From: Naegleria gruberi
Taxonomy: Eukaryota
Length of the DNA: 64,000 bases
Assembly (NCBI GenBank): GCA_000004985.1
Contig: GG738870.1
Strand: one strand, 5' to 3'
A program made the translations under genes and the position numbers. The number at the start of each line of letters is the position of its first letter. The first letter of the stretch is position 1. The notes under the pieces were generated by a model, which searched no databases, had not been told where the DNA came from, and saw nothing but the letters and a program-made list of their open reading frames with translations. Positions 1 through 39,202 of the stretch are shown here, piece by piece.

Positions 1-431
1 ACCCAAACCCAAACCCAAACCCAAACCCAAACCCAAACCCAAACCCAACCCAAACCCAAACCCAAACCCAAACCCAAACCCAAACCCAAACCCAAACCCA
101 AACCCAAACCCAAACCCAAACCCAAACCCAAACCCAAACCCAAACCCAACCCAAACCCAAACCCAAACCCAAACCCAAACCCAAACCCAAACCCAAACCC
201 AAACCCAAACCCAAACCCAAACCCAAACCCCAACCCAAACCCAAACCCAAACCCAAACCCAAACCCAAACCCAAACCCAAACCCAAACCCAAACCCAACC
301 CAAACCCAAACCCAAACCCAAACCCAAACCCAAACCCAAACCCAAACCCAAACCCAAACCCAAACCCAAACCCAAACCCAAACCCAAACCCAAACCCAAA
401 CCCAAACCCAAACCCAAACCCAAACCCAAAC
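1..431. repeat. Terminal telomeric repeat array (CCCAAA)n on the + strand, G-strand unit TTTGGG, about 70 units with a few variant units (CCCAA, CCCCAA).
   Basis: Direct reading: a perfect hexamer tandem array begins at base 1 and ends abruptly at 431. The C-rich strand reads 5' to 3' into the chromosome, as expected for a left chromosome end. Confidence 0.9.
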
Positions 432-706
432 ACTTTTCACATCAACTTGAATCTATTTTTAACTTTTCCGCGCGTTTTTCGGTTTGATCAACCGGCAAAA
501 ATAATTTTGATCAAGTGATTTTATTGCCACTAGCCACCATCATAACTTGATATATATAAATATTTAACAATTTCACATCAGCCGTATATTGTGCCCCATT
601 ACCATCACCATCTTTTGACATCATTTGTGATATATATTGTTAATGTATTTAAGGAGAAAAGCTTAATAAATAGGGGTTGACATGGGATCCAAACCCATTT
701 TGACAT

Positions 707-977
707 TCATCCATATCATACATGGTACATGGCTGATCCACTTGATACCTACAGGGATGTGACAATGACATCTACTATACAGATCATTATGTAATTGATA
801 CAGTACCTTACTGATGGTGAATAAACACTACTGTATCAGTTTCATGACAACTTGATATCATTCAACATGTCAGGAGTGTAATCATGGGAATAATGAATAT
901 CAAGATAATGAAATCATATTAATTTTGAAATCTTTCAATTATAATATCATTTATAGATCAATTAATCAAGGTATTTC
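707..977. repeat. Subtelomeric repeat A, copy 1 (about 270 bp)
   Basis: About 90% identical by eye to 2011..2280. Shared string: tcatccatatcatacatggtacatggctgatccacttgatacctacagggatgtgacaatgacatctactatacagatcat. Confidence 0.8.
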
Positions 978-1139
978 ATTAATTGGTATTGAATTTCATA
1001 TCAATTCATTTAAACCTTAATGACCTATCCTTAGATGACCAACTCAATTTTTAAACTATCATGAATCAAATAACTATTGATACCATTGTNNNNNNNNNNN
1101 NNNNNNNNNNNNNNNNNNNNNNNNNNNNNNNNNNNNNNN

Positions 1140-1590
1140 AACCCAAACCCAAACCCAAACCCAAACCCAAACCCAAACCCAAACCCAAACCCAAACCGAA
1201 ACCCAAACCCAAACCCAAACCCAAACCCAAACCCAAACCCAAACCCAAACCCAACCCAAACCCAAACCCAAACCCAAACCCAAACCCAAACCCAAACCCA
1301 AACCCAAACCCAAACCCAAACCCAAACCCAAACCCAAACCCAAACCCAAACCCAAACCCAAACCCAACCCAAACCCAAACCCAAACCCAAACCCAAACCC
1401 AAACCCAAACCCAAACCCAAACCCAAACCCAAACCCAAACCCAAACCAACCCAAACCCAAACCCAAACCCAAACCCAAACCCAAACCCAAACCCAAACCC
1501 AAACCCAAACCCAAACCCAAACCCAAACCCAAACCCAAACCCAAACCCAAACCCAAACCCAAACCCAAACCCAAACCCAAACCCAAACCC
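1140..1590. repeat. Second (internal) telomeric array (CCCAAA)n, same orientation as the terminal array
   Basis: A tandem hexamer array begins just after a 50-N gap and ends at ...cccaaacccacgactaagg. Variant units include a CCGAAA. It may be a true interstitial telomeric sequence or an assembly artefact next to the gap. Confidence 0.8.
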
Positions 1591-2010
1591 ACGACTAAGG
1601 TCAGACCCAATATTTTGACTTTTATTCATCTTAATTAATTATCTCAATAAATACTCATTATAAATCAATATATTATATATCAATATACTCCAAATTGAAT
1701 ATATAATCATATTATAACATAATATTACATCATTATAATGACTTATGTAAGTTAATTTCATATAATAGATTAGACAATTAGAATATCAATGAAAACATTT
1801 CAGAATCAATTCAAATCAATATATCATCTTATAAATCATGTTTATAACAATATATATCAATTTCAAATACTTTGGTATCTTTTCAAGAAATTTACTATTC
1901 AACTTGTCAACTGACCTATACTAACATTGAAGATAGAAATATATACCACTTCAATTCACTTCTAATACATCTATACATGATAATTAAATATATATATATG
2001 ATTTAGAAGA

Positions 2011-2280
2011 TCATCCATATCATACATGGTACATGGCTGATCCACTTGATACCTACAGGGATGTGACAATGACATCTACTATACAGATCATCATGAAACT
2101 GGTACAGGACCTTACTAGTGGTGTATAAACACTACTGTATCAGTTTCATGACAATTTGAAATCATTCAACATGCCAGGAGTGTAATCATGAGAATTATGA
2201 ATATCAAGATAATGAAATCATATTAATTTTAAAATCTTTCAATTATAACATCATATATAGATCAATTAATCATGGTATTT
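2011..2280. repeat. Subtelomeric repeat A, copy 2, truncated by a 984-N gap
   Basis: Aligns with 707..977 and runs into the N run at 2281..3264. Confidence 0.8.
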
Positions 2281-3264
2281 NNNNNNNNNNNNNNNNNNNN
2301 NNNNNNNNNNNNNNNNNNNNNNNNNNNNNNNNNNNNNNNNNNNNNNNNNNNNNNNNNNNNNNNNNNNNNNNNNNNNNNNNNNNNNNNNNNNNNNNNNNNN
2401 NNNNNNNNNNNNNNNNNNNNNNNNNNNNNNNNNNNNNNNNNNNNNNNNNNNNNNNNNNNNNNNNNNNNNNNNNNNNNNNNNNNNNNNNNNNNNNNNNNNN
2501 NNNNNNNNNNNNNNNNNNNNNNNNNNNNNNNNNNNNNNNNNNNNNNNNNNNNNNNNNNNNNNNNNNNNNNNNNNNNNNNNNNNNNNNNNNNNNNNNNNNN
2601 NNNNNNNNNNNNNNNNNNNNNNNNNNNNNNNNNNNNNNNNNNNNNNNNNNNNNNNNNNNNNNNNNNNNNNNNNNNNNNNNNNNNNNNNNNNNNNNNNNNN
2701 NNNNNNNNNNNNNNNNNNNNNNNNNNNNNNNNNNNNNNNNNNNNNNNNNNNNNNNNNNNNNNNNNNNNNNNNNNNNNNNNNNNNNNNNNNNNNNNNNNNN
2801 NNNNNNNNNNNNNNNNNNNNNNNNNNNNNNNNNNNNNNNNNNNNNNNNNNNNNNNNNNNNNNNNNNNNNNNNNNNNNNNNNNNNNNNNNNNNNNNNNNNN
2901 NNNNNNNNNNNNNNNNNNNNNNNNNNNNNNNNNNNNNNNNNNNNNNNNNNNNNNNNNNNNNNNNNNNNNNNNNNNNNNNNNNNNNNNNNNNNNNNNNNNN
3001 NNNNNNNNNNNNNNNNNNNNNNNNNNNNNNNNNNNNNNNNNNNNNNNNNNNNNNNNNNNNNNNNNNNNNNNNNNNNNNNNNNNNNNNNNNNNNNNNNNNN
3101 NNNNNNNNNNNNNNNNNNNNNNNNNNNNNNNNNNNNNNNNNNNNNNNNNNNNNNNNNNNNNNNNNNNNNNNNNNNNNNNNNNNNNNNNNNNNNNNNNNNN
3201 NNNNNNNNNNNNNNNNNNNNNNNNNNNNNNNNNNNNNNNNNNNNNNNNNNNNNNNNNNNNNNNN
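2281..3264. other. Assembly gap (N run). Other gaps lie at 1090..1139, 4264..4315, 6017..6066, 10658..10715 and 31802..31851.
   Basis: Runs of n. The poly-X ORFs the track lists across them are artefacts. Confidence 0.99.
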
Positions 3265-10032: not shown

Positions 10033-10985
10033 TTAGAAACACTTTCTGTGAACGATACCTGGACCGGCATCCTCATATTCTTCCTTTGTGATCCACATCT
10101 GCTGAAAGGTCGAAAGGCTCGCTAAGATGGAACCACCAATCCAGACAGAGTATTTTCTTTCTGGTGGAGCAACAACCTTAATCTTCATAGAGGCTGGAGC
10201 CATAGCAGTCAATTCCTTGGTCATTCTTTCAGCAATACCTTCGAACATGGTAGTACCACCAGACAAGACAACGTTACCGTACAAGTCCTTTCTGATATCA
10301 ATATCACATTTACCAATTGAATTGAAAGTAGTTTCATGAACACCAGCAGCTTCCATACCAATGAAGTTAGGTTGGAACAAGACTTCTGGACATCTGAATC
10401 TTTCATTACCAACAGTAATGACATTACCGTCTGGCAATTCGTATGACTTTTCAACTGATGATGATTCAGCAGCAACCTTCATTTCAGCTTCAAAGTCCAA
10501 AGCAATATAACAGAGCTTTTCCTTAATATCTCTGACAATTTCTCTTTCAGCAGTAGTATTGAATGAGTAACCTCTTTCCATCAAAATCTTCATCAAATAA
10601 TCAGTCAAGTCACGACCAGCCAAATCCAATCTCAAAATAGCGTGTGGCAAAGCATAANNNNNNNNNNNNNNNNNNNNNNNNNNNNNNNNNNNNNNNNNNN
10701 NNNNNNNNNNNNNNNGGTGATGCCAGATCTTTTCATATCATCCCAATTGGTAACAATACCGTGTTCAATTGGATACTTCAAAGTCAAGATACCTCTCTTT
10801 GATTGAGCTTCATCACCAACATAGGCATCCTTGTTACCCATACCAACCATAATTGATTTTTGCTTTGGTCTACCAATAATTGAAGGGAAGACAGCTCTTG
10901 GAGCATCATCACCAGCAAAACCAGCTTTACACATACCAGAACCGTTGTCAACAACGAGGGCTTGAACGTCTTCACAGAAGGACAT
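10033..10985 (-). CDS. Actin (conventional, highly conserved). The CDS is interrupted by a 58-N assembly gap that hides about 60 codons and breaks the frame.
   Basis: N-terminal part [41 protein letters not shown]...[16 protein letters not shown] (ATG at 10983..10985). C-terminal part [20 protein letters not shown]...[37 protein letters not shown]...IVHRKCF, with stop TAA at 10033. The C-terminal track ORF actually starts at a TTG; the real frame continues into the gap. Confidence 0.95.
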
Positions 10986-11199: not shown

Positions 11200-14100
11200 T
11201 TATTTTCTCTTTTTAAATTCTGAAAGCATTGGATTTGAAAGAATATCTTGTGCTTGTGGTCTAGTTAAATTATCCTTCTCAAGCATACTCAATACCAACT
11301 CAATCACTTGTTCAGAATATCTTTCTCCAAGTGTTTTCCGCAATACTTGAACAACCTCTTTCTGATCTTTATGTCCATACAGTTCAGAAATTGAAGTTAC
11401 AACGTCCTTTGTCATTATTTGATATAAAACTACTCCTAAACTGAATATGTCAGTGTTGAAATAATATTTGTAACCAGAAACCATTTCAGGAGATGCAAAT
11501 ATTGGATCAATATTATTCTCAAAACAATTCAGTCCAAAATCTGTGATAACACTTTCAATAGCATCAGTAGTCAAACTCTTGATCAGTAAATTGGATGTTT
11601 TGATGTTGCCGTGAATACTTTTCTCGGTACAATGAGCAAATTCCAAGGCTAAACATAATTGGTAAATTAATTGTTTGATTAAGTTTTCTGATAGATTGAA
11701 ATTTCTATTGGTCAGCTTTGAGAAATCTCCCATTTCAAAGTAATCCATATCAATAAAAAGCTTTGGATCTTCTGTACTAATAAACATTTCATTAATTTTA
11801 GAGATATGAGGATTGTTGGTATTCATAAGATGCACTGCTTCTTTTAGGAATTTGTTCAAGTCATCCTCTGATTTGTAATTGACAATCTTAATGGTTTTTG
11901 GATATGTTTTGACTGTATCAATTACCTTAAATGTTCTTCCACTTCCTATTCTTGCAATATTGGTATATCTCAAATGAGGATTGAAAACCTCACTAATATA
12001 GGCACTGTCTAATTTGAAACTGTATGCACTTGTTGGTTTGACATATTTGGCTTGGGATGGCAAGTTATCATAGAATAGCTCAATATCTCCACTTTTCACA
12101 TTAGCTACACTTGTTGAAGAATCTGCTGCTTTTTTCTTTCTCATCATCCATACAATAATCAACACAACAATAACGATAATGGTAACTATAATTAAAATAC
12201 CCAGAATCGGAACAATAACAGCTGCTGCTATTGCTCCATCATTTGTGCCTTGTTGAGTATTATCAATTTGTCTCAGATCACTGGATTGGCTAGTTGGTGG
12301 TGGATTTGGTGGAATAATTATTGAATTAATATATGGTAACTCTTGGATGGTGAACAAACTTAAATGAGATACTTGACATTCTAAATCAAAATACATCAAA
12401 TCACCCACTCGTTTGGTAATAGAAAGGAATGTTTTGATTCCTGATTGAGACCAATTATTGGAAGAGTCAAGGTAAACACATGATGCATTGATAGAGGTTT
12501 TGTTACTTGTTGATAAACCTTCAAATTTGAAAATGATTGGATTAATCAAGTTATCAACCTTAACCAAATTACTATCCTTGTTAAAAATGGATAATTCCAA
12601 AGAAGGTCTATTACTCATTATATTTCCATTGTCAGTATCATTATTAATCATGGTTAATGCATAGAATATTATAGAATTGTACCCTACAGTTTGAATTTGT
12701 GTTGAAAAATCATTTGGGAATGATATTTTGACATTGATTCCATTTTTAGAAATGTCAAATGTTTTGGAATTGAATTGATTTACAAGAGGTAACACTTGAC
12801 TGAAAATAGATCCATCAGATGATGACTGTCTGGTAAGTTTGTAATATTCGAAATGATATCTTGCCATTTCACTTTGCTTTGTTGCGTTATTAGAATAAAT
12901 ATTGGAAAGCAGAGTTTTCAAATTAGCAATTTCCTCAAAATGATTTGAATCCAAAAGAGTTTTGAAAATACTTGTAGAATAGTATTGTCCTGCATTGCTC
13001 ATTGATGTAAATATCCAATTTAACCACCATTCCAATTCTGAACTTGTTGAAATATTAGAAACGTTATTCAATAATTTGAAAATATTCGAAAGTGAAGGAA
13101 TAATTAATTGAACAACCTTTTCATCAACTTGATAGGTTAGTGAAGGAATATCTTTCATCATTACCAACATGTCAACAAGCAGTGAAACAAATTTGTTAAT
13201 TGTACCACCATTCAAAGTAAGAATGTTTTCACTCACTTGAGTTAATGAACCATTTTGAATAATCAAAGATAGCAAAGCATTCAGTGAGTTAATTGTGTCA
13301 ATAGTGAGTGGCTTGGATTGTTTTAGAATTGTTAATTCATCTCTTACATAATCAATTCTTGAAACTAAATTATTGGAATACCATGAAATTCTTTCTGGTA
13401 AGTTCATTGTTAAATTCCTTGTAAATTCACTGATTGATCCAAACTCATTCACCATTTTGACTCTTAATATTAAATTACCATCATAAAATGGAAATGAGGT
13501 TACAATTGTCTTTTTCAAAGTATTCGAAATAATGAATAACCTTTCATATTGTGGAGTGTCTATTTCCATAACAATAGAGGATACTCTGTCTTGTGGGAGA
13601 TTAATACAATTAATTGCAATTAAACTCTCATAAGCAGTGTTATCTGAATTCTTTAAATTGTCAACTGAACAAGTAAATCTTGGTTTAAAATCAATTCTTG
13701 TGGAAAGAGATAATTTTGATGATCCAACTGAATTTTTAACAGTCAATTCAAATTCATACCATTCTCCTTCTATCAAATATGTTGAATCAATATTCAAATA
13801 AATTTCAAATGAGTTTTCAATAAGAGGTTTGAAACTTGTAAATGATCCAAGACTTGGAATAGCATTTCTCAATTTTCCTGAAGCCAATTTCCATCCATAT
13901 TCCACAACTGCACTGTCAGATTCAACAATACAATGTAAACTTAAAGAACTGCCAGATGGATAAATAGTTGGAATGTAATCTGGTGTTATTTTCGGTGCTG
14001 AAATATCTGAATTCACAAGTTCAATAAAACCAAAGTATGAGTAAACATTTTCTGAAATGGTAACATTAACACCAATCATAAACATTCCTACTGATAATCC

Positions 14101-17100
14101 CATACTGTTAAAATCTACTTGTAATTGATTTAAATTTTGAGCATTACATAAATTTTGTGCAATGATAGTTGACTTGTCCGAACTAGTTCTGTAACAATAC
14201 CAAGAATAAGAAGTAGGTGATAAGGACTTGACAAATGAATCATCACTTTCTAAGCCAATAGTTAATTTGTTCAAGCTCAAGGAATAAGTTCTATTGACAT
14301 TTGTTAATCTAAAATCAATTGTCGGAATTTTGGTTGGAATTGAAAAAGGATAACTGATTTGTACTGTTGATTGAGTGTTAGTTTGAGTAGAAGTTACTTT
14401 CAAATTGGATGATGATGTACTATTTGTAATAATTCTAAACAGCTGCTTATTCAATAATTCTGATCTAATACCACCAAATAATTCAAACGAAAGTGAACTA
14501 TTCACACTAATTGATTGTATTTCAAATAAACAATCATTCTTTCCAACGCAATTCTCTTCTCTTGAAGTCAAAATGTTAAATGAAGGAAGTGATGATTCAC
14601 CTAACTTGATAGTTTTTGAAATTGAAGAAATAGAATTCATATCATTTGAACTTTTCAGTGAAATATCAAATGTGTTAATACCTGTCAAAATTGAACTGTA
14701 AGGAATTCTAATTACTGTCTTGTTTGAGTAATTATTCAACCATGAATTAACAGAACTGGTTGGTGAAGTCCAGTATTGAGATATTCTCTTGAAATGATGA
14801 TAGGTTGAGGGAATGACTGACCTAATTATTAAATCTTGGGATGATGGAATGAATTCAGGTAAATCCATAATTGCTGGGAATGATGCACCTGTCTCTGACA
14901 AGTCAACTCTAATTGAGAAACCAAACTGGGCCTTAATAATAGAACCGTTCGTAATAGAGTGTTCATATCCCAAAAAGAGTTTAAAATTATTTCTTCTCCA
15001 TTGACATTTGGTCAACTCAACTTGTCCAAGCTTAGCAATCTCATTCTTTTCAATTATCTTGTCGCAGCCATCAATCACAGAATCATTCAAATAGGTATTC
15101 AGAACATCAGAATATGAATAAATTAATGCATTTTCAATATCCAAATTAACACTAATTAATTCGCACTCCTTTCCAACATAATCCTTTGCACATTTGCAAT
15201 TATTTGGAGAAACACATTGACCCTTACTTGAACAAACATTTGGATCTGTTTGTATCTTTCCATAACATTCACTGTATTGACATTCATTGCCTGAAGATCC
15301 ATTTTGACAGTTGCATTGATTTGTTCTTAGACAGATTCCTTTTCCTGAACACACACTTGCATTATTTGAAAGAATTCCATAGCATTTGATGAGTGAACAG
15401 TCAAATCCATAATAATCCTTATTACATGTACAATTATTGTATCCTGAACAAACTCCATGACCTGAACAAACAGTGGCATTGTCAAATGTAATGGAATAAC
15501 ATTTCACCTTGTCACATTTATCTCCTCCCCATTCATATGAGCACAAACAACGTCCAGTAGTGGCAGAACATTGATTTCCATTCTTACAAACTGTCTGATT
15601 TCCAGCTCTAGAGCAATTGAATGTCTCACAATTTGATCCAGAGTATCCTAATTGACAAGAACAAATATTTGGAGAAATACAAGAACCAACAGAAGAACAG
15701 ACACTTGCATTCAATCTTGACTTTCCAAAACAATCAAACAATTCACAATTCGATCCATAAAATTCTGATTTACATCCACACTTATTGAACTGAGTACAAT
15801 TTCCTGAACTTGAACAAACAGTTGAGTTGAGTGAACTCACACCAAAGCAATCAAACTTTTCGCATTCCTTACCATAATATCCTTGTGAACAAGTGCAGTT
15901 ATCAATTGAAGAGCAAACACCTCTGGAAGAACAAACATTGGATGAATTAACAGCCTTTCCATAACAATCATAAATTTCACAATTACGTCCATAATAATTT
16001 TTGGTACAGTTGCAAGTGTCAACGTTTGAACAATTACCAACTGAGGAGCAAACATTTTTCAGATCATTCCTTACTCCAAAACAATTATAGTATTGACAAT
16101 TAGTTCCATAAAATCCTGTCTGACAAGTACAATTATTCAATGAACTGCAAACTCCCTTTCCAGAACAAACAAGTGTAGAATTCTTTAACACTCCATAACA
16201 TGAATATTGTTCACAGTCTCTTCCACTATATCCATCTTCACATGAACAATTATTTGGAGCAATACATTGACCATTCGAATTGCAAACTTGATTATTATTT
16301 GCTAAAATATTCGAACATTTTGGAAATTCACAATTAGGTCCTCCATACTGTTGTGGATTTGTGCAATTACAAACATTTGCATCAATGCATGAACCCCTTC
16401 CAGAACAAACTCCATTGCCATTTGCTAAAATGTTTGCACATTTTGGAATGTCACAATATTGACCTCCCCAGGAATTTTGACATGTGCAATTATTTGTGCC
16501 AATACATGCTCCTCTTCCTGAACAAACAGATGAATTACTTGCTAGAATGTTCTTACACATTGGAAATTGACAATTTTCTCCTCCCCACAAAGTATTATTA
16601 AAACATGTGCAATTGTCAGGTGTAAAACAAGATCCTCTACCTGAACAAACATCTGCTTGACCCTGAACCACTCCAAAACAAACAGGAATACACTCATTCA
16701 ATGTTACATTATAGAAATATGTCGAATTACAATAAGGTGTCAACTTTCTAATTCTATTATTTCCACTATCAAGAATAAAAACTTCCTTCTGTGAATTGAC
16801 AGCAACATCAACAGGACTATTCAATCTCAAAGTATCATTTCCTGAAGATTTTGCAATACCTGATATCACAGAAACAGTTCCACTCATTCCAACAAATTCA
16901 ATCATACGAATGACATGATTCATTTTGTCGGCAATGTAAATTTCCTTACTAGGTCCATAAGCAACACCAGTTGGTGAATTAAATTTTGCAATTGTTGTGT
17001 TTCCATCAATATAATCTGCAGTTACACCTCCTATGGTTGTAGAAGTACCAGATACATTCCTGGATAGTCTATGCAAGTCAGTTTCGGATATAAACATTTC

Positions 17101-17703
17101 AGTTGAGGAAAAGACTGCTAATCCATTTGGTTGAGTGGCTGCTATTGGCTGTGTTGTAATTATTCCCGATGAAACTTTTCTAATTTTAAGAAATTCACTA
17201 AAGTAAATGTCACCATTCGAAAGTGTGGAAATATATTTTGGACTGAAAATGTTAGTGGATGTGGCATTAACATTATCTTTGGTAGTACCAGATATTCCAA
17301 CCGTTCCAGCTATTGTCCTAATTATTCCATTGCTGACTTCTCTAATAGCATGATTCGAAGTGTCAGCAATCAATAATTTGCCATCAATTGTGACAGCTAA
17401 ACCACTGGGAGAATAAAGCTTGGCAGATGTTGCATTCGTATTAGTATCAGATCCAAAAGCTCCAGTTCCAGCCACAATTGTTATTGCCCCACTATTCGAA
17501 TCTATTCGTTTTACTAAATGATTTTTCGTATCTGAAACGTAAATTTCACCACTATTTCCCAAAGCAATTCCTTCAGGTTGATTAAACCCTACCAAACTAA
17601 TATGTTTCACAGTATACGAAGGTTGAATCGACAATACGAAACACAAATTCACAACTATTAGAAACAACAATACTAAACTCCTCACACCAACATGTTTCGT
17701 CAT
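11200..17703 (-). CDS. Giant type-I membrane receptor (2167 aa). Signal peptide, then NHL-repeat beta-propeller, then about 20 tenascin/EGF-like Cys repeats, then a long extracellular domain, one TM helix, and a cytoplasmic protein-kinase-like domain predicted to be a pseudokinase.
   Basis: ATG at 17701..17703, N-terminal hydrophobic signal (LVLLFLIVVNLCFVLS). NHL-like repeats (YVSDTKNHLVKRID, LLIADTSNHAIREV, IYIADKMNHVIRMI, VFILDSGNNRIRKL). Repeated CSGRGSC...C.C...G.NC modules. TM segment AIAAAVIVPILGILIIVTIIVIVVLIIVWMM followed by RKKK. Kinase motifs IGSGRTF, KTIKIV, DFG and SPE are present, but the catalytic loop reads HGNIKTSN instead of HRDLKxxN, so the catalytic Asp is absent. Confidence 0.8.
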   Translation of the reverse strand: MTKHVGVRSLVLLFLIVVNLCFVLSIQPSYTVKHISLVGFNQPEGIALGNSGEIYVSDTKNHLVKRIDSNSGAITIVAGTGAFGSDTNTNATSAKLYSPSGLAVTIDGKLLIADTSNHAIREVSNGIIRTIAGTVGISGTTKDNVNATSTNIFSPKYISTLSNGDIYFSEFLKIRKVSSGIITTQPIAATQPNGLAVFSSTEMFISETDLHRLSRNVSGTSTTIGGVTADYIDGNTTIAKFNSPTGVAYGPSKEIYIADKMNHVIRMIEFVGMSGTVSVISGIAKSSGNDTLRLNSPVDVAVNSQKEVFILDSGNNRIRKLTPYCNSTYFYNVTLNECIPVCFGVVQGQADVCSGRGSCFTPDNCTCFNNTLWGGENCQFPMCKNILASNSSVCSGRGACIGTNNCTCQNSWGGQYCDIPKCANILANGNGVCSGRGSCIDANVCNCTNPQQYGGPNCEFPKCSNILANNNQVCNSNGQCIAPNNCSCEDGYSGRDCEQYSCYGVLKNSTLVCSGKGVCSSLNNCTCQTGFYGTNCQYYNCFGVRNDLKNVCSSVGNCSNVDTCNCTKNYYGRNCEIYDCYGKAVNSSNVCSSRGVCSSIDNCTCSQGYYGKECEKFDCFGVSSLNSTVCSSSGNCTQFNKCGCKSEFYGSNCELFDCFGKSRLNASVCSSVGSCISPNICSCQLGYSGSNCETFNCSRAGNQTVCKNGNQCSATTGRCLCSYEWGGDKCDKVKCYSITFDNATVCSGHGVCSGYNNCTCNKDYYGFDCSLIKCYGILSNNASVCSGKGICLRTNQCNCQNGSSGNECQYSECYGKIQTDPNVCSSKGQCVSPNNCKCAKDYVGKECELISVNLDIENALIYSYSDVLNTYLNDSVIDGCDKIIEKNEIAKLGQVELTKCQWRRNNFKLFLGYEHSITNGSIIKAQFGFSIRVDLSETGASFPAIMDLPEFIPSSQDLIIRSVIPSTYHHFKRISQYWTSPTSSVNSWLNNYSNKTVIRIPYSSILTGINTFDISLKSSNDMNSISSISKTIKLGESSLPSFNILTSREENCVGKNDCLFEIQSISVNSSLSFELFGGIRSELLNKQLFRIITNSTSSSNLKVTSTQTNTQSTVQISYPFSIPTKIPTIDFRLTNVNRTYSLSLNKLTIGLESDDSFVKSLSPTSYSWYCYRTSSDKSTIIAQNLCNAQNLNQLQVDFNSMGLSVGMFMIGVNVTISENVYSYFGFIELVNSDISAPKITPDYIPTIYPSGSSLSLHCIVESDSAVVEYGWKLASGKLRNAIPSLGSFTSFKPLIENSFEIYLNIDSTYLIEGEWYEFELTVKNSVGSSKLSLSTRIDFKPRFTCSVDNLKNSDNTAYESLIAINCINLPQDRVSSIVMEIDTPQYERLFIISNTLKKTIVTSFPFYDGNLILRVKMVNEFGSISEFTRNLTMNLPERISWYSNNLVSRIDYVRDELTILKQSKPLTIDTINSLNALLSLIIQNGSLTQVSENILTLNGGTINKFVSLLVDMLVMMKDIPSLTYQVDEKVVQLIIPSLSNIFKLLNNVSNISTSSELEWWLNWIFTSMSNAGQYYSTSIFKTLLDSNHFEEIANLKTLLSNIYSNNATKQSEMARYHFEYYKLTRQSSSDGSIFSQVLPLVNQFNSKTFDISKNGINVKISFPNDFSTQIQTVGYNSIIFYALTMINNDTDNGNIMSNRPSLELSIFNKDSNLVKVDNLINPIIFKFEGLSTSNKTSINASCVYLDSSNNWSQSGIKTFLSITKRVGDLMYFDLECQVSHLSLFTIQELPYINSIIIPPNPPPTSQSSDLRQIDNTQQGTNDGAIAAAVIVPILGILIIVTIIVIVVLIIVWMMRKKKAADSSTSVANVKSGDIELFYDNLPSQAKYVKPTSAYSFKLDSAYISEVFNPHLRYTNIARIGSGRTFKVIDTVKTYPKTIKIVNYKSEDDLNKFLKEAVHLMNTNNPHISKINEMFISTEDPKLFIDMDYFEMGDFSKLTNRNFNLSENLIKQLIYQLCLALEFAHCTEKSIHGNIKTSNLLIKSLTTDAIESVITDFGLNCFENNIDPIFASPEMVSGYKYYFNTDIFSLGVVLYQIMTKDVVTSISELYGHKDQKEVVQVLRKTLGERYSEQVIELVLSMLEKDNLTRPQAQDILSNPMLSEFKKRK

Positions 17704-18097: not shown

Positions 18098-19195
18098 ATG
18101 CAGCATATTGTAGAGATTCTTCCACTTGAAATAATCGAAACTATTCTTGCCTATTTGCCACTTGTCGAATTGTTATTTTGTGCTTCAAATGTTTGCAAAC
18201 AATTTCGGGAGGCTGCCTTTCCTAGTCTTTCCATCAATTTTCTTCAAGAAATTTCGCTGTTGGCCACAGATGAAACTCTGGAAGAAATTAAAACTTTGCA
18301 ATTGAACGGATTCAATGAATATTCCCAAATATTTACCAACAAGTTTGGAAGAATAATTATCAGAAAAATTATGAGAGAACATGTTTTTGAATTGGCAAAG
18401 ACATTAGTGAAAGCAAATAAGGAATTGTGCAAAATTGCTGATGCGAATTCAGATATCAAGCCGAAAGATAAGGATTTCAGTTCAGTTCTGGCTGATGATC
18501 ATGAATTGATGTCTGAATTCGAAGTGACTTGTCAGTTTTTTACATATTTCAAAGGTGCTGAACCAAAAGAACGTATGGAAACAAATCAAAGCAAAACTTC
18601 AATATTTAGCAAATTCACTTCACTTTTTAAAAAAGAAAATTCTCAAGAAAAATCAACTGTTGTTGCTAGTTCAAAAGAAAGAGAACAATCGTTTAAGTGT
18701 ATTATGCTTGGTGATTCAGCTGTTGGAAAGTCATCTTTAATAGACAATTGTATTTTGAGGAATAGACCAGGTACTGATAGAACTATTGCAAGTGGATTTC
18801 CAACATATACTGAACTTTCGTACAAGTTGAAAGAGAAAGTTGTTTTGAAAATGTGGGAAATTACAGGAATAATGAAAGCTGAAACAATTTCTCTTTATAG
18901 TGCAAAGATTAATTTGCAAATCTTCATGTTTGATTTTGGAACTTATTTCACAAGTTCATTTCCAAAAGTAGAAGAATATTTGAAAATGATGAAAACAGAA
19001 TGTGAAACAATATTGATTGGAAATAAGAAAGATCTTTTGGAGGATGAGAATTGTAGTAAAACAGCTCGTGAATTTGCTTTGAAAAAGATGAAGGGAACTC
19101 TATATGTTGAAATGGATACAATAGATATTCAAATGGCACATAGTGTGATATTATATTCTGCATTGATATTGTTTTTTACGAATAATAAATTGTAA
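18098..19195 (+). CDS. F-box protein with a C-terminal atypical Ras-superfamily small-GTPase-like domain (365 aa)
   Basis: ATG at 18098. N-terminal F-box ILPLEIIETILAYLPLVELLFCASNVCKQFREAA. C-terminal G-domain motifs: G1 LGDSAVGKSS, G4 GNKKDL. G3 is the degenerate WEITG (no DxxGQ) and G5 is non-canonical. Confidence 0.55.
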   Translation: MQHIVEILPLEIIETILAYLPLVELLFCASNVCKQFREAAFPSLSINFLQEISLLATDETLEEIKTLQLNGFNEYSQIFTNKFGRIIIRKIMREHVFELAKTLVKANKELCKIADANSDIKPKDKDFSSVLADDHELMSEFEVTCQFFTYFKGAEPKERMETNQSKTSIFSKFTSLFKKENSQEKSTVVASSKEREQSFKCIMLGDSAVGKSSLIDNCILRNRPGTDRTIASGFPTYTELSYKLKEKVVLKMWEITGIMKAETISLYSAKINLQIFMFDFGTYFTSSFPKVEEYLKMMKTECETILIGNKKDLLEDENCSKTAREFALKKMKGTLYVEMDTIDIQMAHSVILYSALILFFTNNKL

Positions 19196-29465: not shown

Positions 29466-32337
29466 CTAGTTCTGTTCAGTGTTTGGACGAGTTTGGTTCG
29501 GGCTAAGTGGTTGGGACAGCTGTTGCCTTTGGTAAGCAGAAGTGTATTTTTTGTTTTTGATGAAGGAGTCGGTGGGACGATTGTACCATGATGAATTTTT
29601 GTAGCAGTTACTAACATATACTGCGAGAGCTTTGTAGATATCTAGGGCCACAGCCTTGGGGAGTCGTTTGTGATTGGCCCAAATGGACCAATTATGCTTT
29701 GTGCATCGACCGTCATATTCAATGTTAAGGCAATTTGGAATGGAAGATTCAGGTGGGAAACGGATCTTGCTTAGGTTGTATTTATGAGAGATATCGTCCC
29801 AAGTGGCATATAGTTCTTGCTTTTCAGGTAAGCATTTTGGACAGGATTGGAAGACATGGGTCCAGGTTTCTTCCTTGTGACATATGTCACATTCACTATT
29901 AATGCCTAGATATATGGCATGGTGTAGGTTGTAAAATAGTAGACGTTGTTGGTAGTACGAGAGTTGGTGGTTTCTCCAAAGAGACAACACACAGTGGTGC
30001 CAGTTGAACTCGTTGTCAAGTTGGCCCATTATTGTTATTTCTTTTTTTTTACGTTCATTGTTTAGAACGAGTTGTCTGATGTTTTGGACAGGTTTGTGAC
30101 TATTGCGGTGGCACAACACCCATCCACTTTCGGTGGATTTGAAGTATAAATTCAATTCTTTCATAGTAATACTAGTTTGTTTCCATAAAGAATCTGTTGC
30201 ATCATTGTTGGGTTGTTTCATCATGTTTCTAGCTATATTTCTGGTTAAGGGAGATGTAGAATTAACAAATCTGCATACAGCTGCCATTCTCTCAACGCTA
30301 GAGATGTCTACAGGAGACATCAGCCCCATTCCTCCTTGCTGTACATCACCATAGATGATAGCCTTGGATAGTTTGAGGTTGCATCCTATTTTGGATTTAA
30401 TTGTTACACTAATTTTAGTTTCTAAACTCTGTAAAGTGGATTGAGAGACAGCATCTACACTGGAGAGGTATCTGGGTACGGAAAGTACCTTTGATAACAA
30501 TACAGTTCTAACTGTATTGAGTCTGAGATGTCTGGGTCTGAAATTATTAAGTCGGGAGTTAATCTTATCTATCAATTTATCTTGAGAGGGCGACCATTTC
30601 AGGTTATTAAGAAGTCTGGAACCAAGATATTCGAGGGTATCTTTAGGGTTGTTGATATTGACGTTATTAAGGAATACTTTGGCGGTAGACTTTTTACCAG
30701 ATGCAGTGACACCAAATACTTTGCATTTATGAGTAGCAAAGTGCATGCCTAATTGGTTGGCAGTTGAGTTGAGTTTGTGGAGGATGTTTGTCATTTCGTT
30801 GGATGATTCTGAAAGGACAATGATGTCATCTGCATACAACAACATTACAATTTTGTCTCCTAATAGAGAGACTCCTTTAAAGCCATCAACGATACTCGTG
30901 ATGGCATTGAAATAAATATTGAACACAAGTGGACTCAATGGGTCTCCTTGTGGGACTCCAAAAGTAGCATCAAACGCCGGTGATGTGGAACCATTAGCAA
31001 ACACTTTCACAGAATGTTCACTAATCATATTCATGATTAAATCGCATACTGATTGATTGAAACCTTGATATTTCAAGATTTCTTTCAGTTTGCTATGGAC
31101 AACGCTGCCATATGCATTTTTAATATCAAGGGTGCACATAAATAAAGGTTTCTTTTTGTGCCTGTAGTTGGCAACGACTGATTTCACTATCACGAGCTGG
31201 TCTGTCGTGGATGCTAGTCTTCTGAAGCCTCTTTGGGCTGGATGAATTAAATTATCCTTTTCCACCCTTTCCATGAGGTGGTAATTGACGTACGAAGAAA
31301 AAATTCTGTAAATAATTGGTAGAACTACTATAGGTCTAAAATCTGATAGACGTTTAGGGCAATTGGTTTTAGGTAAGGGAAGTAATAACCCCTCTTTCCA
31401 AGAGGACGGAATGGGATTTCCATCCACAAGGATCTTGTTGAAAGCTTGGCAGACTATGTCTAATGCCTCATCATTCATGCTCTTAAATACCAACATTGGG
31501 ATTTTGTCCCATCCGGGCATTGTATGTTTCATCTTTCCAATAATATTGGAGAGAGAACTTACACAGGCAGGTGGGATTTTGAACCCATTAAGGGAATCTA
31601 TGGATTGATAGTTTTGTAGGTTTAGTTTGGTAGATCCTAGATCAGTATTGAACATTTTGTTGAAATGTTCAAACACATTATCTGGGACGGATTCAACATC
31701 AAACACTGAACTTGAGTTCCTTTCTTTTTTAAATGCATATCTATAGGGAGTGTTGAGTTTGAGGTTGTTAACTGCAATTTTGAATGCTTCTTTTCTTTGT
31801 TNNNNNNNNNNNNNNNNNNNNNNNNNNNNNNNNNNNNNNNNNNNNNNNNNNCCCAAAATACAAATTAATATTGAGATCTCCAAGTATGAAAATGTGCTCC
31901 GAGTGAAACATGCATTCTGTAACTAGATCTGTAACTTTTGAAAGGATCTTGTGAAATTCACTTGAGACTCGGTGGACACCATACCAGTTGATTATATTGA
32001 TGATACCATCACTTGTTTCCAATTTTAGGCATGTCAATCTGCCTTGATAGAGTTCTTCAAATGATAGTACCTTTCTTTGAAGAGTACCTTTGATAATCGT
32101 AATGACACCGGCTGCTTTATCATCCTTATTACAGTGTGATCCAAATATGGAGCACGGTTGAAAGAATTTGGCAGCTTTTGAAACTTGATCCTTGAATTCA
32201 TTGTGTGACCAATGAGTTTCTTGGACATTCACTACATTAAGTCCTTCTCTATTAATGTGTTGGAGTAGAATGGCTTGTTTGTCTAGAGAGAAGGACGACA
32301 GATTACAAGAGGCCATTCTAATGCGAGGGGAGACCAT
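29466..32337 (-). CDS. LINE ORF2 protein (APE endonuclease, RT, zinc knuckle; about 960 aa, split in the track by the 31802..31851 gap)
   Basis: See the mobile_element entry. The frames of the two track ORFs differ only because of the arbitrary gap length. Confidence 0.8.
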
Positions 32338-35055: not shown

Positions 35056-35554
35056 TGAATGTCATTTCAGAATTTACATTAAAATAATTACAATTAAATG
35101 TTCAAGATAGAAATTTGAAGTCTCTTCGAAACTATTAGGTTAATAATTTATTCATTCCATTTATTTAGAGTGTGAAATATAAGGAATATCCTTTAACTAT
35201 TAAGGAACTTTGAACGGATGTGTATATTAATAAACAGTGCAGCCCCTACCAATTTCTGACCTTCCTCCTTCACTACTGGGTGTATAATCTTAACACAATT
35301 AAATTAGCACATGTCCACCTTGTTAAGGCAGGCACATTTTGTATTACTGGGGATTTATGTTAGGCAAAATCGCCTTATCAGAATGGAAGGAACCTATTTT
35401 GTCTCCTCCTTGGTCTTCTAGAACCACTAAAACACTAGACACAGCACCAGATCGCGTTTCATCAACAACTTCAAATCGTTGTTTAACATCCATGGAACCT
35501 TCTCTCAACAACCACACGAAAAAAAAACAGATGATTCTTCATCGTCATCATTCC

Positions 35555-38500: not shown

Positions 38501-39202
38501 TATTCTTGGATGGATTACCAATTTAAGGATACTGTGAATGGAGCCACACTTACTTATGAAGTTAGAGATCAAGATAATAACTTATTAACGCCAACATCGT
38601 CATATATTACACTGGATACTAATCAGAGAAAGTTTACAATTTCTGGTTCAAATATTCCAACAAGTGTTAAAGTATTGAAAATCTCAGTTCGTTTTACAGT
38701 TCCTAATTTTACCAATTTTAAATATAGAGCTTATCTTTATTTGGTTCCAGATGCAATTACCCAACCTAGTCCAACATCAGTGTTGAATTATACTGTTTTG
38801 GAAAATGGATTGAGAAAGTATACGTTAAATTATCAATTGACCAAAACATATGTTGCTGCCATGTCATCCATTTCATTAAAAATTGGAAGTCATAAGATTA
38901 GTATTGCCAATGTCGGTCCAAGTCAACTTGTGAAATTTATACTTCCACCCCTCTTGGATGCCAGCTCAATAATTGCTGATGTGACATATGTCGATAATAG
39001 ATATGTCGGTGGTGCTAGCTCCATTACACAACAATTCACATTACATTCTCTACCTGCCGAAAGTCAATCATCTGATTCTTTTATTCGTTCCATGCAAGAA
39101 TCCATTCGAACAGATGCCACAACTTATTTAGGTACTAATTTTGTAATGTTAATAATGAATATTAGATATTTGGGTGAGGAATATGATTTCCCTACCATGT
39201 AA
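35555..39202 (+). CDS. Secreted or surface EGF/tenascin-repeat protein (about 1215 aa from the signal-peptide Met). About 15 Cys-rich EGF-like modules plus a large Cys-poor C-terminal domain.
   Basis: The track ORF starts at a TTG (35339). Signal peptide MKNLCALPLLLILCFQTVLLFFHSSC begins at the ATG at 35555..35557 (an alternative ATG lies at 35531). Repeated CSGRGVC..C.C..G..G..C modules are like those of the 11200..17703 receptor. No kinase, and no clear TM. Confidence 0.75.
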   Translation: MKNLCALPLLLILCFQTVLLFFHSSCIQPVRGETCFGIASSSSKTCSGRGVCTPDNLCTCNVDSSLGSSSPYSGLNCEVDLCFPNAIISYNCNGNGQCENGVCKCKEGTSGFMCHLNSTKLMCFGVSGGDSRVCSGHGKCLDTNVCSCQDGYTGTECQIPLCYGIPSTLTSSVCSGKGTCKGQDTCECQSGFSGANCEVLGSVSSQGSSIAIPASFCGSIIDSDNRTCNGRGKCIANDTCLCMEGYNDHDMCQSTFCFSIPQYDALVCSGHGNCIDYNTCNCTSSGNSSLNFIGNECEIVQCLGRNFHFYNSTDSNVCNGNGFCSSTNDGCICKDGYYGDACEQFSCFGISSTSEISCSGNGQCLDIDTCSCYSNLQQGYWSGENCDICDENYSGTHCNETVTCQSETFCNLLGSCFNNTCQCEEQYSGPSCSLCQGGFYGPFCNHSCSRVDTCHGHGECSRDGIFCECDQSNEDGYWDDLSMCQKCKNGYFGSSCLLRIGESFGLNSLGNEIVIPLVIRPNNLQNLLNCSLILVLESRRMLGSFPECWIDSNNMLRITIPKDSTFSPILNSDRIVIIPSGFENGIQKNETISLPFDSINTKLVLPVAKIYSNSTYILPNSDLTLIGSNLLRIERERNLTFEWSLKSSDSDFALFQSNLNSRISSGKFGQLTITKSDIPSTVTTFQIQLIVRNQINNISSNPTHMTFTVLKSTTLQQVYNGAYNLKFNLPTQILYVHNDMLPYKLKYSLLQDNSPISLPNSSYSIQFSISPTPSDNTFVTLQNSNGILTISSAYNYDNQNNVYEGFDGQVFNSSKFYQIIGTVTHVPSGKIVTQKSIKSFFINRNSGARPDFDTGSLNPLPTQAGPAAITILTNGHTFDSVDWDCFEWSGVGGKCSNEWMAAIAASKDSNILNVPLDTFFLAKNPLYVRAKVVIAGIPYYLQSSVTPSQGFGFKTLNGATLYSIIAGMQLAKIDRTNSHTAVYSWMDYQFKDTVNGATLTYEVRDQDNNLLTPTSSYITLDTNQRKFTISGSNIPTSVKVLKISVRFTVPNFTNFKYRAYLYLVPDAITQPSPTSVLNYTVLENGLRKYTLNYQLTKTYVAAMSSISLKIGSHKISIANVGPSQLVKFILPPLLDASSIIADVTYVDNRYVGGASSITQQFTLHSLPAESQSSDSFIRSMQESIRTDATTYLGTNFVMLIMNIRYLGEEYDFPTM

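What the first reader, a model, noticed from the sequence alone, without database searches (positions are those of the whole stretch)
11200..17703. 2167-aa NHL-propeller, EGF-array, TM receptor whose kinase domain lacks the catalytic aspartate
The domain order is signal peptide, NHL repeats, about 20 tenascin-type EGF modules, a roughly 900-aa Cys-poor ectodomain, one TM helix, then a kinase fold. In the kinase the HRD motif is HGN (Arg to Gly, Asp to Asn), while the GxGxxG, VAIK-like Lys, DFG and APE-like motifs are retained. This predicts a receptor pseudokinase, functionally analogous to receptor guanylyl-cyclase kinase-homology domains or HER3-like signalling. Such a receptor encoded in a single exon right next to a chromosome end is unusual.
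Basis: partly seen in the sequence, partly recalled or inferred. Interest (0 to 1): 0.6.

Follow-up and report, generated by a model that had tools for sequence, protein, structure and literature searches.

The report
Naegleria GAIN-domain receptor with dead kinase
This is an intact, already annotated but uncharacterised Naegleria gruberi gene for a large cell-surface receptor whose kinase domain has lost its catalytic residues yet is strongly conserved, and whose outer part ends in a self-cleaving GAIN domain of the kind otherwise known from adhesion GPCRs.

Summary
The ORF (11200-17703, minus strand, 2167 aa) is real. It is identical to Naegleria gruberi XP_002676784.1 (NAEGRDRAFT_49308, 'predicted protein').

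The domain order is confirmed: signal peptide, six-blade NHL propeller, EGF array, Cys-poor ectodomain, one TM helix, kinase fold. The catalytic loop is IHGNIKTSN, so the HRD Asp is Asn in three independent alignments.

- There are 13 EGF modules, not about 20.
- The Gly-rich loop is not retained. It carries a 3-residue deletion, and the activation segment has a 7-residue deletion.

A second N. gruberi paralog (NAEGRDRAFT_73188, HAN) shares all three kinase lesions. At least five other paralogs keep HRD and GxGxFG. The dead kinase is the best-conserved domain between the two pseudokinase paralogs (72% against 52-65%).

Best reading: an adhesion-type, probably autoproteolytic, type I receptor pseudokinase that signals as a scaffold or allosteric partner, probably of its active paralogs.

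Being single-exon and subtelomeric is not remarkable. Novelty is moderate: I found no description of a GAIN, single-TM, (pseudo)kinase architecture.

The parts
11200..17703 (-). Complete single-exon CDS, 2167 aa plus stop. Identical to N. gruberi XP_002676784.1 / NAEGRDRAFT_49308 / UniProt D2VGC0.
   Evidence: ORF list and translation. Exact-sequence look-up. An independent 98%-identical allele lies on metagenome contig L001, with dN/dS 0.24.
17629..17703 (-). Signal peptide (aa 1-25, MTKHVGVRSLVLLFLIVVNLCFVLS).
   Evidence: N-terminal hydrophobic stretch read directly. No dedicated predictor was run.
16729..17625 (-). NHL beta-propeller, six blades (aa ~27-325).
   Evidence: Pfam NHL E=3.9e-27 with 4 stretches passing, and TEN_NHL 30.2 bits. 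Six P-x-G-[IV]-A...[IV]-[AS]-D..N..[IV]-R repeats were read by eye.
15160..16692 (-). Array of 13 teneurin/tenascin-type EGF modules (aa 338-848, 39-aa period).
   Evidence: Pfam EGF_TEN 119.9 bits, EGF_2, EGF_Teneurin. 13 regex modules and 80 Cys.
13396..15159 (-). Beta-strand-rich, Cys-poor middle ectodomain (aa 849-1436), probably a string of Ig/FN3/PKD-like sandwiches. Lineage-restricted at sequence level.
   Evidence: AF2 model is all-beta but of low confidence (pLDDT 58). Foldseek gives only generic Ig/FN3/MG arrays. There is a weak Pfam PKD hit, E=0.078. Only 7 representatives were found in 1.84 billion proteins.
12334..13395 (-). GAIN domain (aa 1437-1790): helical subdomain A (9 helices) plus beta-sandwich subdomain B ending in the GPS motif.
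12352..12480 (-). GPS motif C1742...W1751...C1776-x3-H1780-L1781-S1782-x-F1784. The predicted autoproteolysis site is between L1781 and S1782 (HLS codons at 12358-12366).
   Evidence: Pfam GPS covers 2-43/45 of the profile at 16.8 bits, E=0.01, below the 22.5 cut-off. Paralog P0016 scores 25.2-30.4 bits, above it. C, W, C, H and F are invariant in 15 aligned heterolobosean sequences. In the model HLS sits in the turn between the last two strands.
12142..12237 (-). Single transmembrane helix (aa 1823-1854), followed by RKKK.
   Evidence: It is the only long hydrophobic segment after the signal peptide.
11968..12141 (-). Cytoplasmic juxtamembrane segment (aa 1855-1912) with Tyr/Ser-rich motifs (DIELxYDNLPxQAxYxKPxSxYSF) shared with the pseudokinase paralog only.
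   Evidence: Read from the sequences and the alignment. That these are docking sites is inference.
11227..11967 (-). Protein-kinase fold, Ser/Thr type, predicted catalytically inactive (pseudokinase).
   Evidence: Pfam Pkinase E=6.9e-30. Best solved relatives are MST3/STK24 (E=2.6e-15), STK25 and NEK. It is 72% identical to the pseudokinase paralog, the highest of any domain.
11923..11946 (-). Degenerate Gly-rich loop GSGRTFKV (aa 1920-1927), 3 residues shorter than in active relatives.
   Evidence: Alignments to MST3 and to the paralogs.
11590..11616 (-). Catalytic loop IHGNIKTSN (aa 2030-2038). HGN (codons CAC GGC AAC at 11605-11613) replaces HRD.
   Evidence: The codons are identical in the independent contig L001.
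11533..11541 (-). Retained DFG (aa 2055-2057), followed by an activation segment shortened by 7 residues.

Best explanation
The gene encodes a type I cell-surface receptor of Naegleria gruberi.

Its ectodomain is built like that of an adhesion receptor. It has a six-blade NHL propeller and 13 EGF modules at the tip, a stalk of beta-sandwich domains, and a membrane-proximal GAIN domain. The GAIN domain has an intact His-Leu|Ser motif, so it probably cleaves itself and leaves the large N-terminal fragment non-covalently held on the membrane-anchored stub.

Inside the cell the only domain is a Ser/Thr-type kinase fold that can no longer catalyse normal phosphotransfer. The catalytic base Asp is Asn, the HRD Arg is Gly, the Gly-rich loop lost three residues and the activation segment lost seven.

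The dead kinase is nevertheless the most conserved part of the protein. It therefore most likely works as a binding module, either an allosteric partner or scaffold for the catalytically intact paralogs of the same receptor family, or a docking platform phosphorylated in trans. Binding or pulling on the ectodomain (ligand, prey or substrate contact, possibly shedding of the N-terminal fragment at the GAIN site) would change receptor pairing.

Shown: domain architecture, loss of catalytic residues, GAIN fold, paralog pattern, purifying selection. Inferred: cleavage, mechanosensing, heterodimerisation with active paralogs.
For: - Architecture: Pfam; TM, signal peptide and EGF count.
- Dead kinase: D to N, R to G, the 3-aa Gly-loop deletion and the 7-aa activation-segment deletion are seen against MST3 and against six paralogs. 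The HGN codons are identical in an independent metagenome allele.
- Not a decaying gene: the 6.5-kb ORF is intact in two alleles, with 47 synonymous against 43 non-synonymous differences over 1381 and 5117 sites, dN/dS 0.24.
- The paralog NAEGRDRAFT_73188 (HAN) shares all three lesions, so the losses predate the duplication. The kinase domain is 72% identical between the two, against 52-65% for the other domains.
- Active partners exist in the same genome: P0003, P0004, P0005, P0016 and P0063 are N. gruberi proteins with HRD[IV]K and GQGxFGSVF. Four of them have the same NHL-EGF-GAIN-TM layout.
- H, L, S/T and F of the cleavage motif and the flanking C/W/C are conserved.
Against: - No biochemical or expression data exist for this gene (one search found no paper naming it).
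- Some kinases lacking canonical residues still bind ATP or have weak activity. Lys, Glu, Asn and DFG are retained here, so residual or atypical activity cannot be excluded.
- For this protein alone the Pfam GPS score is below threshold (16.8 against 22.5). A profile of the kinase-bearing family alone reaches GAIN structures only marginally (E=0.067). The GAIN call therefore rests mainly on the predicted structure, whose alignment included canonical GPS proteins.
- Only one of the two GPS disulfides is present.
- The cleavage site is 41 residues from the membrane, and there is no 7TM bundle to receive a tethered agonist. The aGPCR activation mechanism cannot apply as such.
- Heterodimerisation with active paralogs is pure inference.
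- The dN/dS count within the kinase domain itself is tiny (3 synonymous, 1 non-synonymous).
Confidence: 0.6

Rival explanations
1. The kinase domain is an atypical but active kinase. Asn replaces the catalytic base but phosphotransfer still occurs, weakly or with unusual cofactor or substrate. Examples from my own knowledge are the HGN-bearing JAK2 JH2 domain and HRN-bearing HER3. On this reading the receptor signals by its own activity.
For: The beta3 Lys, alphaC Glu, catalytic-loop Lys and Asn, DFG Asp and SPE are all retained. The domain is under strong constraint, 72% identical between the paralogs.
Against: Three separate lesions hit the catalytic machinery together: loss of the base Asp and of the HRD Arg, a 3-residue deletion in the nucleotide-clamping Gly loop, and a 7-residue deletion removing the substrate-positioning part of the activation segment. 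Close paralogs in the same genome keep all of these, so the changes are derived losses and not a family-wide atypical mechanism.
Confidence: 0.15
2. The gene is a decaying subtelomeric paralog on its way to becoming a pseudogene. The HGN change would simply be early neutral decay.
For: It lies 9.6 kb from a telomeric array, in a gap-rich scaffold end next to repeats and a reverse-transcriptase ORF further in. It belongs to a multi-copy family.
Against: A 6.5-kb ORF is intact in a 33% G+C genome. A second allele from a metagenome is also intact, with dN/dS 0.24. The lesions are shared with a 57%-identical paralog, so they are old, and the kinase domain is the best-conserved domain between the two.
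Confidence: 0.03
3. The receptor functions purely as an adhesion or shedding molecule. GAIN cleavage serves to release the NHL-EGF fragment from the surface, as proposed for microbial GAIN-like domains, and the cytoplasmic pseudokinase is only a cytoskeletal or trafficking anchor with no signalling role.
For: The GAIN fold has an intact HL|S motif. GAIN-like domains that release surface proteins are described in bacteria and archaea (bioRxiv 10.64898/2026.05.12.724683). There is no 7TM for a tethered agonist.
Against: The cytoplasmic domain is the most conserved part of the protein. The juxtamembrane Tyr/Ser motifs are conserved between the two pseudokinase paralogs. Sister receptors carry active kinases. 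All this points to a signalling output.
Confidence: 0.17

Closest known systems
HER3/ErbB3 and JAK JH2-type pseudokinase domains (animal receptor-associated pseudokinases)
   Same: A kinase fold attached to a receptor, with the catalytic Asp replaced by Asn while the beta3 Lys and DFG are kept. From my own knowledge the loops are HRN in HER3 and HGN in JAK2 JH2. They function through allosteric pairing with active relatives. Here too active paralogs coexist in the genome.
   Different: This is a Ser/Thr-type catalytic loop (HxNIKxxN), closest to STE20/NEK kinases, not a tyrosine kinase. It has additional Gly-loop and activation-segment deletions and an unrelated ectodomain in a discoban protist, so the loss is independent. 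Pairing with active paralogs is not shown.
Adhesion GPCRs and polycystin-1 family (GAIN-domain receptors)
   Different: One TM helix instead of 7 or 11, and a kinase fold as output. Only one of the two GPS disulfides is present. The helical subdomain has 9 helices. The cleavage site is 41 residues from the membrane. A tethered-agonist mechanism has no obvious target.
Naegleria 7TM-RGS receptors with EGF repeats and GPS motifs (Bosch et al., J Biol Chem 2022, PMC9283941)
   Same: Same genus and the same ectodomain toolkit (NHL and/or EGF arrays plus a GPS motif before the membrane). Examples appear among the homologs here: P0011, P0029, P0093.
   Different: Those have seven TM helices and an RGS box. 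This family has one TM and a kinase or pseudokinase. The ~940-aa region between EGF and TM is not detectably similar to them by HMM.
Teneurins
   Same: Pfam's teneurin-derived EGF (EGF_TEN, 119.9 bits) and NHL (TEN_NHL, 30.2 bits) models match.
   Different: From my own knowledge, teneurins are type II proteins with EGF before NHL, a YD-repeat shell and a toxin-like C-terminus. None of these is present. The orientation and domain order are reversed, and the output is a kinase fold.
Plant receptor-like pseudokinases and Entamoeba transmembrane kinases (protist and plant receptor Ser/Thr kinase families containing inactive members)
   Same: A lineage-specific expansion of single-pass receptor Ser/Thr kinases in which some members have lost catalytic residues and are thought to act as co-receptors or scaffolds (own knowledge).
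   Different: Unrelated ectodomains (LRR, or CXXC repeats) and no GAIN domain. No direct homology was tested here.

Membership tests
Eukaryotic protein kinase fold (Pfam Pkinase PF00069) | Significant full-length match to the kinase-domain profile | tested here: met
   E=6.9e-30, 104.7 bits against a cut-off of 31.7, profile positions 1-262/263. 808 PDB kinase sequences match at E<=0.001, best MST3 at 2.6e-15.
Catalytically competent protein kinase | Catalytic base Asp in the HRD motif | tested here: not met
   IHGNIKTSN aligns to IHRDIKAAN (MST3) and IHRDIKPSN (paralogs), so Asp is Asn2033 and Arg is Gly2032.
Catalytically competent protein kinase | Gly-rich loop GxGxxG of normal length | tested here: not met
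   IGS---GRTF against IGQGAFGSVF and KIGKGSFGEVF. A 3-residue deletion removes the third Gly.
Catalytically competent protein kinase | Beta3 Lys, alphaC Glu, DFG Asp | tested here: met
   KTIKI (aa 1936-1940), FLKEA (aa 1952-1956) and DFG (2055-2057) are aligned with the paralog and MST3 equivalents.
Pseudokinase (kinase fold lacking at least one of beta3 Lys, HRD Asp, DFG Asp) | Loss of a canonical catalytic residue in a conserved, selected domain | tested here: met
   The HRD Asp is lost. The domain is 72% identical to paralog P0002, which has HAN. Whole-gene dN/dS is 0.24. Absence of activity itself is not testable with these tools.
GAIN domain | Two-subdomain fold: helical subdomain A plus a beta-sandwich subdomain B that ends in the GPS strands | tested here: met
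GAIN domain | GPS motif recognised by Pfam PF01825 | tested here: inconclusive
   Window protein: 16.8 bits, E=0.01, below the 22.5 cut-off, over profile positions 2-43/45. Paralog P0016: 25.2 bits in context and 30.4 isolated, above the cut-off. Family-only profile against PDB: E=0.067. The broader heterolobosean profile gives E=2e-15.
GAIN domain | Catalytic His-Leu|Ser/Thr at the turn between the last two strands | tested here: met
   H1780-L1781-S1782 then F1784. H and F are invariant in 15 sequences. HL[ST]xF is present in all seven kinase-family members. The site lies between strands E361-370 and E375-380 of the model.
GAIN domain | Actual autoproteolysis with the fragments staying associated | not testable with these tools
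   Needs expression and immunoblot or Edman analysis of wild type against H1780A and S1782A.
Adhesion GPCR | Seven-transmembrane domain directly after the GAIN domain | tested here: not met
   A single hydrophobic segment at aa 1823-1854, then a kinase fold to the C-terminus.
Teneurin | Type II topology with EGF, then NHL, then a YD shell and toxin-like C-terminus | tested here: not met
   An N-terminal signal peptide, NHL before EGF, a C-terminal TM plus kinase, and no YD or Tox-GHH hit.
Receptor tyrosine kinase (HER3-like) | Tyrosine-kinase-type catalytic loop (HRDLAARN or HRDLRAAN) and closest relatives among TKs | tested here: not met
   The loop is H-G-N-I-K-T-S-N (Ser/Thr type). The best solved relatives are STE20-family MST3/STK25/MST4 and NEK. 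PK_Tyr_Ser-Thr scores lower than Pkinase (60.5 against 104.7 bits).
Receptor guanylyl cyclase (kinase-homology domain) | Cyclase catalytic domain C-terminal to the kinase-homology domain | tested here: not met
   The protein ends 8 residues after the kinase domain, and no cyclase hit was found.
NHL beta-propeller | Six NHL blades | tested here: met
   Pfam NHL 93.3 bits with 4 stretches passing on their own. Six repeats of about 45 aa were read in the sequence, at aa 39-78, 96-133, 152-186, 189-226, 241-282 and 294-323. The fold itself was not modelled.

The most novel reading that the evidence does not exclude
N. gruberi possesses a class of 'adhesion receptor kinases'. These are single-pass receptors in which an autoproteolytic GAIN domain is coupled not to a 7TM/11TM channel or GPCR but to a cytoplasmic Ser/Thr kinase. 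Two dedicated pseudokinase members (this gene and NAEGRDRAFT_73188) would act as obligate allosteric co-receptors of the active members. Force- or ligand-induced dissociation at the GAIN site would then control kinase pairing. That would be a GAIN-based mechanosensing route independent of tethered-agonist or G-protein signalling, evolved outside the animal lineage.
Probability: 0.25. Interest if true: 0.7.

Novelty: new variant of a known kind. Interest (0 to 1): 0.45.

Why it matters
Receptor pseudokinases and GAIN-domain receptors are each well known, mostly from animals.

What this locus adds is their combination in a free-living discoban amoeba. It belongs to a small family of NHL-EGF-GAIN single-pass receptors with kinase outputs. 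One old sub-branch of that family has lost catalysis but kept the domain under the strongest constraint in the protein.

If cleavage and pairing were shown, two things would follow. First, the GAIN module can feed signalling outputs other than 7TM/11TM bundles. Second, the 'dead kinase as allosteric co-receptor' solution arose independently far from animals and plants.

Practically, this is an uncharacterised 'predicted protein' (NAEGRDRAFT_49308) that can now be annotated domain by domain.

Tried and rejected
1. The search for homologous proteins with the 945-aa ectodomain and with the 272-aa kinase region, both given as letters, returned no hit at all. Identical sequences are in that database. 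I treat these as tool false negatives, not as absence.

2. Two scans of metagenome contigs, one with the kinase domain and one with a two-sequence alignment, found no further relatives.

It did not hit the REJ-annotated EGF proteins, so I did not call the middle region a REJ module.

4. The AF2 model of the middle ectodomain (aa 874-1441, 7-sequence alignment) was poor (pLDDT 58, pTM 0.37). Its Foldseek matches are generic Ig/FN3/macroglobulin arrays at TM about 0.15. I use it only to say 'beta-sandwich-rich'.

5. I first took P0002 (57% identity) for an ortholog in another species. The exact look-up showed that the window itself is N. gruberi, so P0002 is a paralog, and I reframed the argument accordingly.

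6. Pseudogene and sequencing-error readings were rejected.

7. Literature searches for Naegleria pseudokinases, GAIN plus Naegleria, GAIN plus receptor kinase, and the gene's accession numbers gave nothing specific. The library is incomplete, so this is not proof of novelty.

Full report
**What is there.** The window holds an uninterrupted ORF at 11200-17703 on the minus strand, 2167 codons. An exact-sequence look-up shows it is Naegleria gruberi XP_002676784.1 / EFC44040.1 / NAEGRDRAFT_49308 (UniProt D2VGC0), annotated only as 'predicted protein'. The window is therefore a scaffold end of the published N. gruberi genome. A 98%-identical allele sits on an unrelated metagenome contig (L001, ERZ929261).

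**Architecture.**
- Pfam gives NHL (E=3.9e-27), teneurin-type EGF (EGF_TEN E=1.7e-34, EGF_2, EGF_Teneurin) and Pkinase at aa 1913-2159 (E=6.9e-30, full-length profile match).
- By direct reading, aa 1-25 are a signal peptide.
- aa ~27-325 contain six NHL blades.
- aa 338-848 contain 13 EGF modules with a 39-aa period (80 Cys).
- One TM helix at aa 1823-1854 is followed by RKKK, and the ectodomain has 45 N-glycosylation sequons. The protein is therefore type I.

**The kinase domain.** Three independent alignments put IHGNIKTSN (aa 2030-2038) on the catalytic loop: phmmer against MST3/STK24 and STK25 (IHRDIKAAN), MAFFT with six paralogs (IHRD[IV]KPSN), and the Pfam full-length match. The catalytic Asp is Asn2033 and the HRD Arg is Gly2032. 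The codons (CAC GGC AAC) are identical in the independent allele, so this is not a sequencing error.

It reads IGS---GRTF against IGQGAFGSVF, a 3-residue deletion that removes the third Gly. The activation segment is also 7 residues shorter and lacks the SYAGTP stretch.

The beta3 Lys (KTIKI), alphaC Glu (FLKEA), catalytic-loop Lys and Asn, DFG and SPE are kept. The loop type (HxNIKxxN) and the nearest solved relatives (STE20-family MST3/STK25/MST4, NEK) mark it as Ser/Thr-type, not a tyrosine kinase.

**Paralogs.** N. gruberi P0003, P0004, P0005, P0016 and P0063, N. lovaniensis P0036, and P0121 (source unknown) all have HRD[IV]K and a canonical GQGxFGSVF loop. One further N. gruberi protein, P0002 (NAEGRDRAFT_73188, 2520 aa, 57% identical), has HAN and shares both deletions. 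The three lesions therefore arose once, before these two genes diverged.

**Selection.**
- Between the two pseudokinase paralogs the kinase domain is the best-conserved domain: 72% identity, against 52% for NHL, 65% for EGF, 54% for the middle region, 63% for GAIN and 53% for stalk/TM/juxtamembrane.
- Between the two alleles there are 47 synonymous and 43 non-synonymous differences over 1381 and 5117 sites, dN/dS 0.24. The kinase domain has 3 synonymous and 1 non-synonymous difference, too few to stand alone.
- Together these exclude a decaying pseudogene and show that the inactive domain is functionally constrained.

**The 'Cys-poor ectodomain'.** Just before the membrane the sequence reads C1742-VYLDSSNN-W1751...E-C1776-QVS-H-L-S-L-F. 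This is the pattern of a GPCR proteolysis site.
- Pfam GPS matches it over the whole profile, but below threshold (16.8 bits, E=0.01). The same position in paralog P0016 (CETNHLTAF) scores 25.2-30.4 bits, above the 22.5 cut-off.
- All seven family members then in hand have HL[ST]xF.
- In an alignment with more distant heterolobosean EGF/NHL receptors that have canonical CxCxH[LT]T motifs, the C, W, C, H and F columns are invariant.
- An AlphaFold2 model of aa 1409-1793 from that 15-sequence alignment is confident (pLDDT 84.2, pTM 0.80). It shows nine helices followed by a beta-sandwich, with HLS in the turn between the last two strands.
- In Foldseek the only hit at E<=0.001 is BAI3 GAIN (E=1.4e-7). 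The global TM-score is low (0.28-0.31), presumably because the helical subdomain is larger and differently oriented.
- A profile of the 15-sequence alignment hits 19 aGPCR GAIN sequences in the PDB, best ADGRL3 at E=2e-15.

There are three caveats. A profile of the kinase-bearing family alone reaches GAIN structures only marginally (GPR56, E=0.067). Only one of the two GPS disulfide pairs is present. The cleavage site lies 41 residues from the TM helix.

I conclude that aa ~1437-1790 are a GAIN domain with a cleavage-competent motif. Cleavage itself is not shown.

**The remaining aa 849-1436.** This region is beta-rich. The model is poor (pLDDT 58), and it matches only generic Ig/FN3/macroglobulin arrays, plus a weak PKD hit (E=0.078). 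The whole 945-aa region is lineage-restricted at sequence level, with 7 representatives among 1.84 billion proteins.

**Mechanism (inference).** The ectodomain has the logic of an adhesion receptor: interaction modules held on a stalk above an autoproteolytic GAIN hinge. The cytoplasmic domain cannot perform normal phosphotransfer but is the most constrained part. The two pseudokinase paralogs also share a juxtamembrane stretch rich in Tyr/Ser (DIELxYDNLPxQAxYxKPxSxYSF) that the active paralogs lack.

The most economical model has three parts. The protein is a co-receptor or scaffold that pairs with catalytically active members of the same family, as HER3 does with other ErbBs. It may be phosphorylated in trans. 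Engagement or shedding of the N-terminal fragment modulates pairing.

The rivals are an atypical but active kinase, a purely adhesive or shedding molecule, and a decaying paralog. Each is listed with its test.

**Comparison with what is known.**
- Receptor pseudokinases with Asp to Asn in the catalytic loop are well known. From my own knowledge, HER3 has HRN and JAK2 JH2 has HGN.
- GAIN domains are known from aGPCRs and polycystin-1-like proteins, and recently from bacterial and archaeal surface proteins (bioRxiv 10.64898/2026.05.12.724683).
- In Naegleria, GPS motifs with EGF repeats have been described in 7TM-RGS proteins (PMC9283941). Such proteins also appear among my homologs (P0011, P0029, P0093).
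- I found no description of a GAIN domain followed by a single TM helix and a kinase or pseudokinase, nor any paper naming this gene. The searchable library is incomplete and I could not query InterPro architectures.
- The protein is not a teneurin, aGPCR, RTK or receptor guanylyl cyclase by their defining features (see the membership table).

**Location.** CCCAAA arrays occupy 1-430 and 1139-1590, separated by unique sequence and an N gap. The gene's stop codon is 9.6 kb from the inner array. Nothing I could test makes the position or the lack of introns functionally meaningful.

**Verdict.** The pseudokinase interpretation holds. The gene is already in public databases but uncharacterised. 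The GAIN, single-TM, (pseudo)kinase combination is a moderately interesting new variant of known kinds.

Noticed in passing
window 1-2280: There are two CCCAAA telomeric arrays, at 1-430 (68 units) and 1139-1590 (71 units), each followed by a related subtelomeric element. The stretches 697-976 and 2001-2280 are 92.5% identical over 280 bp without gaps. N gaps lie at 1090-1139 and 2281-3264. This is either a tandem telomere-plus-subtelomere duplication or two chromosome-end contigs joined by scaffolding.
   Followed up: partly
window 10033-10985 (-): An actin gene lies directly downstream of the receptor gene. Its ORF is split and frame-shifted only by an assembly gap (N run at 10658-10715). 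The ORF list therefore shows just the C-terminal 205 aa (Pfam Actin E=4.4e-72).
   Followed up: partly
window 18098-19195 (+): A 365-aa ORF combines an N-terminal F-box with a Ras/Roc-type small GTPase domain. It is divergently oriented from the receptor gene.
   Followed up: no
window 29466-31883 (-): An 805-aa ORF has a reverse-transcriptase domain (RVT_1, E=1.2e-33) and ends at an N gap (31802-31851). It is probably a retroelement in the subtelomeric region.
   Followed up: no
window 35339-39202 (+): A 1287-aa ORF has teneurin-type EGF modules followed by a long Cys-poor beta-looking region. It has no TM helix and no GPS motif inside the ORF. It is either another member of the EGF-receptor superfamily whose 3' part lies in another exon, or a secreted form.
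   Followed up: partly
window 43066-45474 (+): An 802-aa soluble kinase has an intact HRD/DFG and an N-terminal CRIB-like motif (ISGPFNVRLEHHVDFD), so it looks PAK/STE20-like. Its kinase domain contains a long insert.
   Followed up: no
N. gruberi proteins P0003 and P0004 (alignment): The public gene models of these two active paralogs end abruptly inside the kinase domain with unrelated residues after the P+1 loop. These are likely mis-called introns or frameshifts in the annotation.
   Followed up: no
Homologs P0011, P0029, P0093 (Naegleria) and P0020, P0050 (metagenomic): These are large EGF and/or NHL ectodomains with canonical CxCxH[LT]T GPS motifs, followed by multi-pass membrane regions. 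In the Naegleria proteins P0011, P0029 and P0093, and in P0020, an RGS domain follows; P0050 instead carries PF00620. GAIN-multi-TM linkage therefore exists in Heterolobosea (known for N. fowleri, PMC9283941). A 2025 eLife analysis (PMC12716839) places the origin of the GAIN-7TM module in stem holozoans. Whether the Naegleria 7TM is homologous to the adhesion-GPCR 7TM was not examined.
   Followed up: partly
(tool behaviour): the search for homologous proteins returned zero hits for sub-sequences of the window protein given as letters. The full protein given as a DNA reference found identical and near-identical entries. 'No hits' from that tool should not be read as absence.
   Followed up: no
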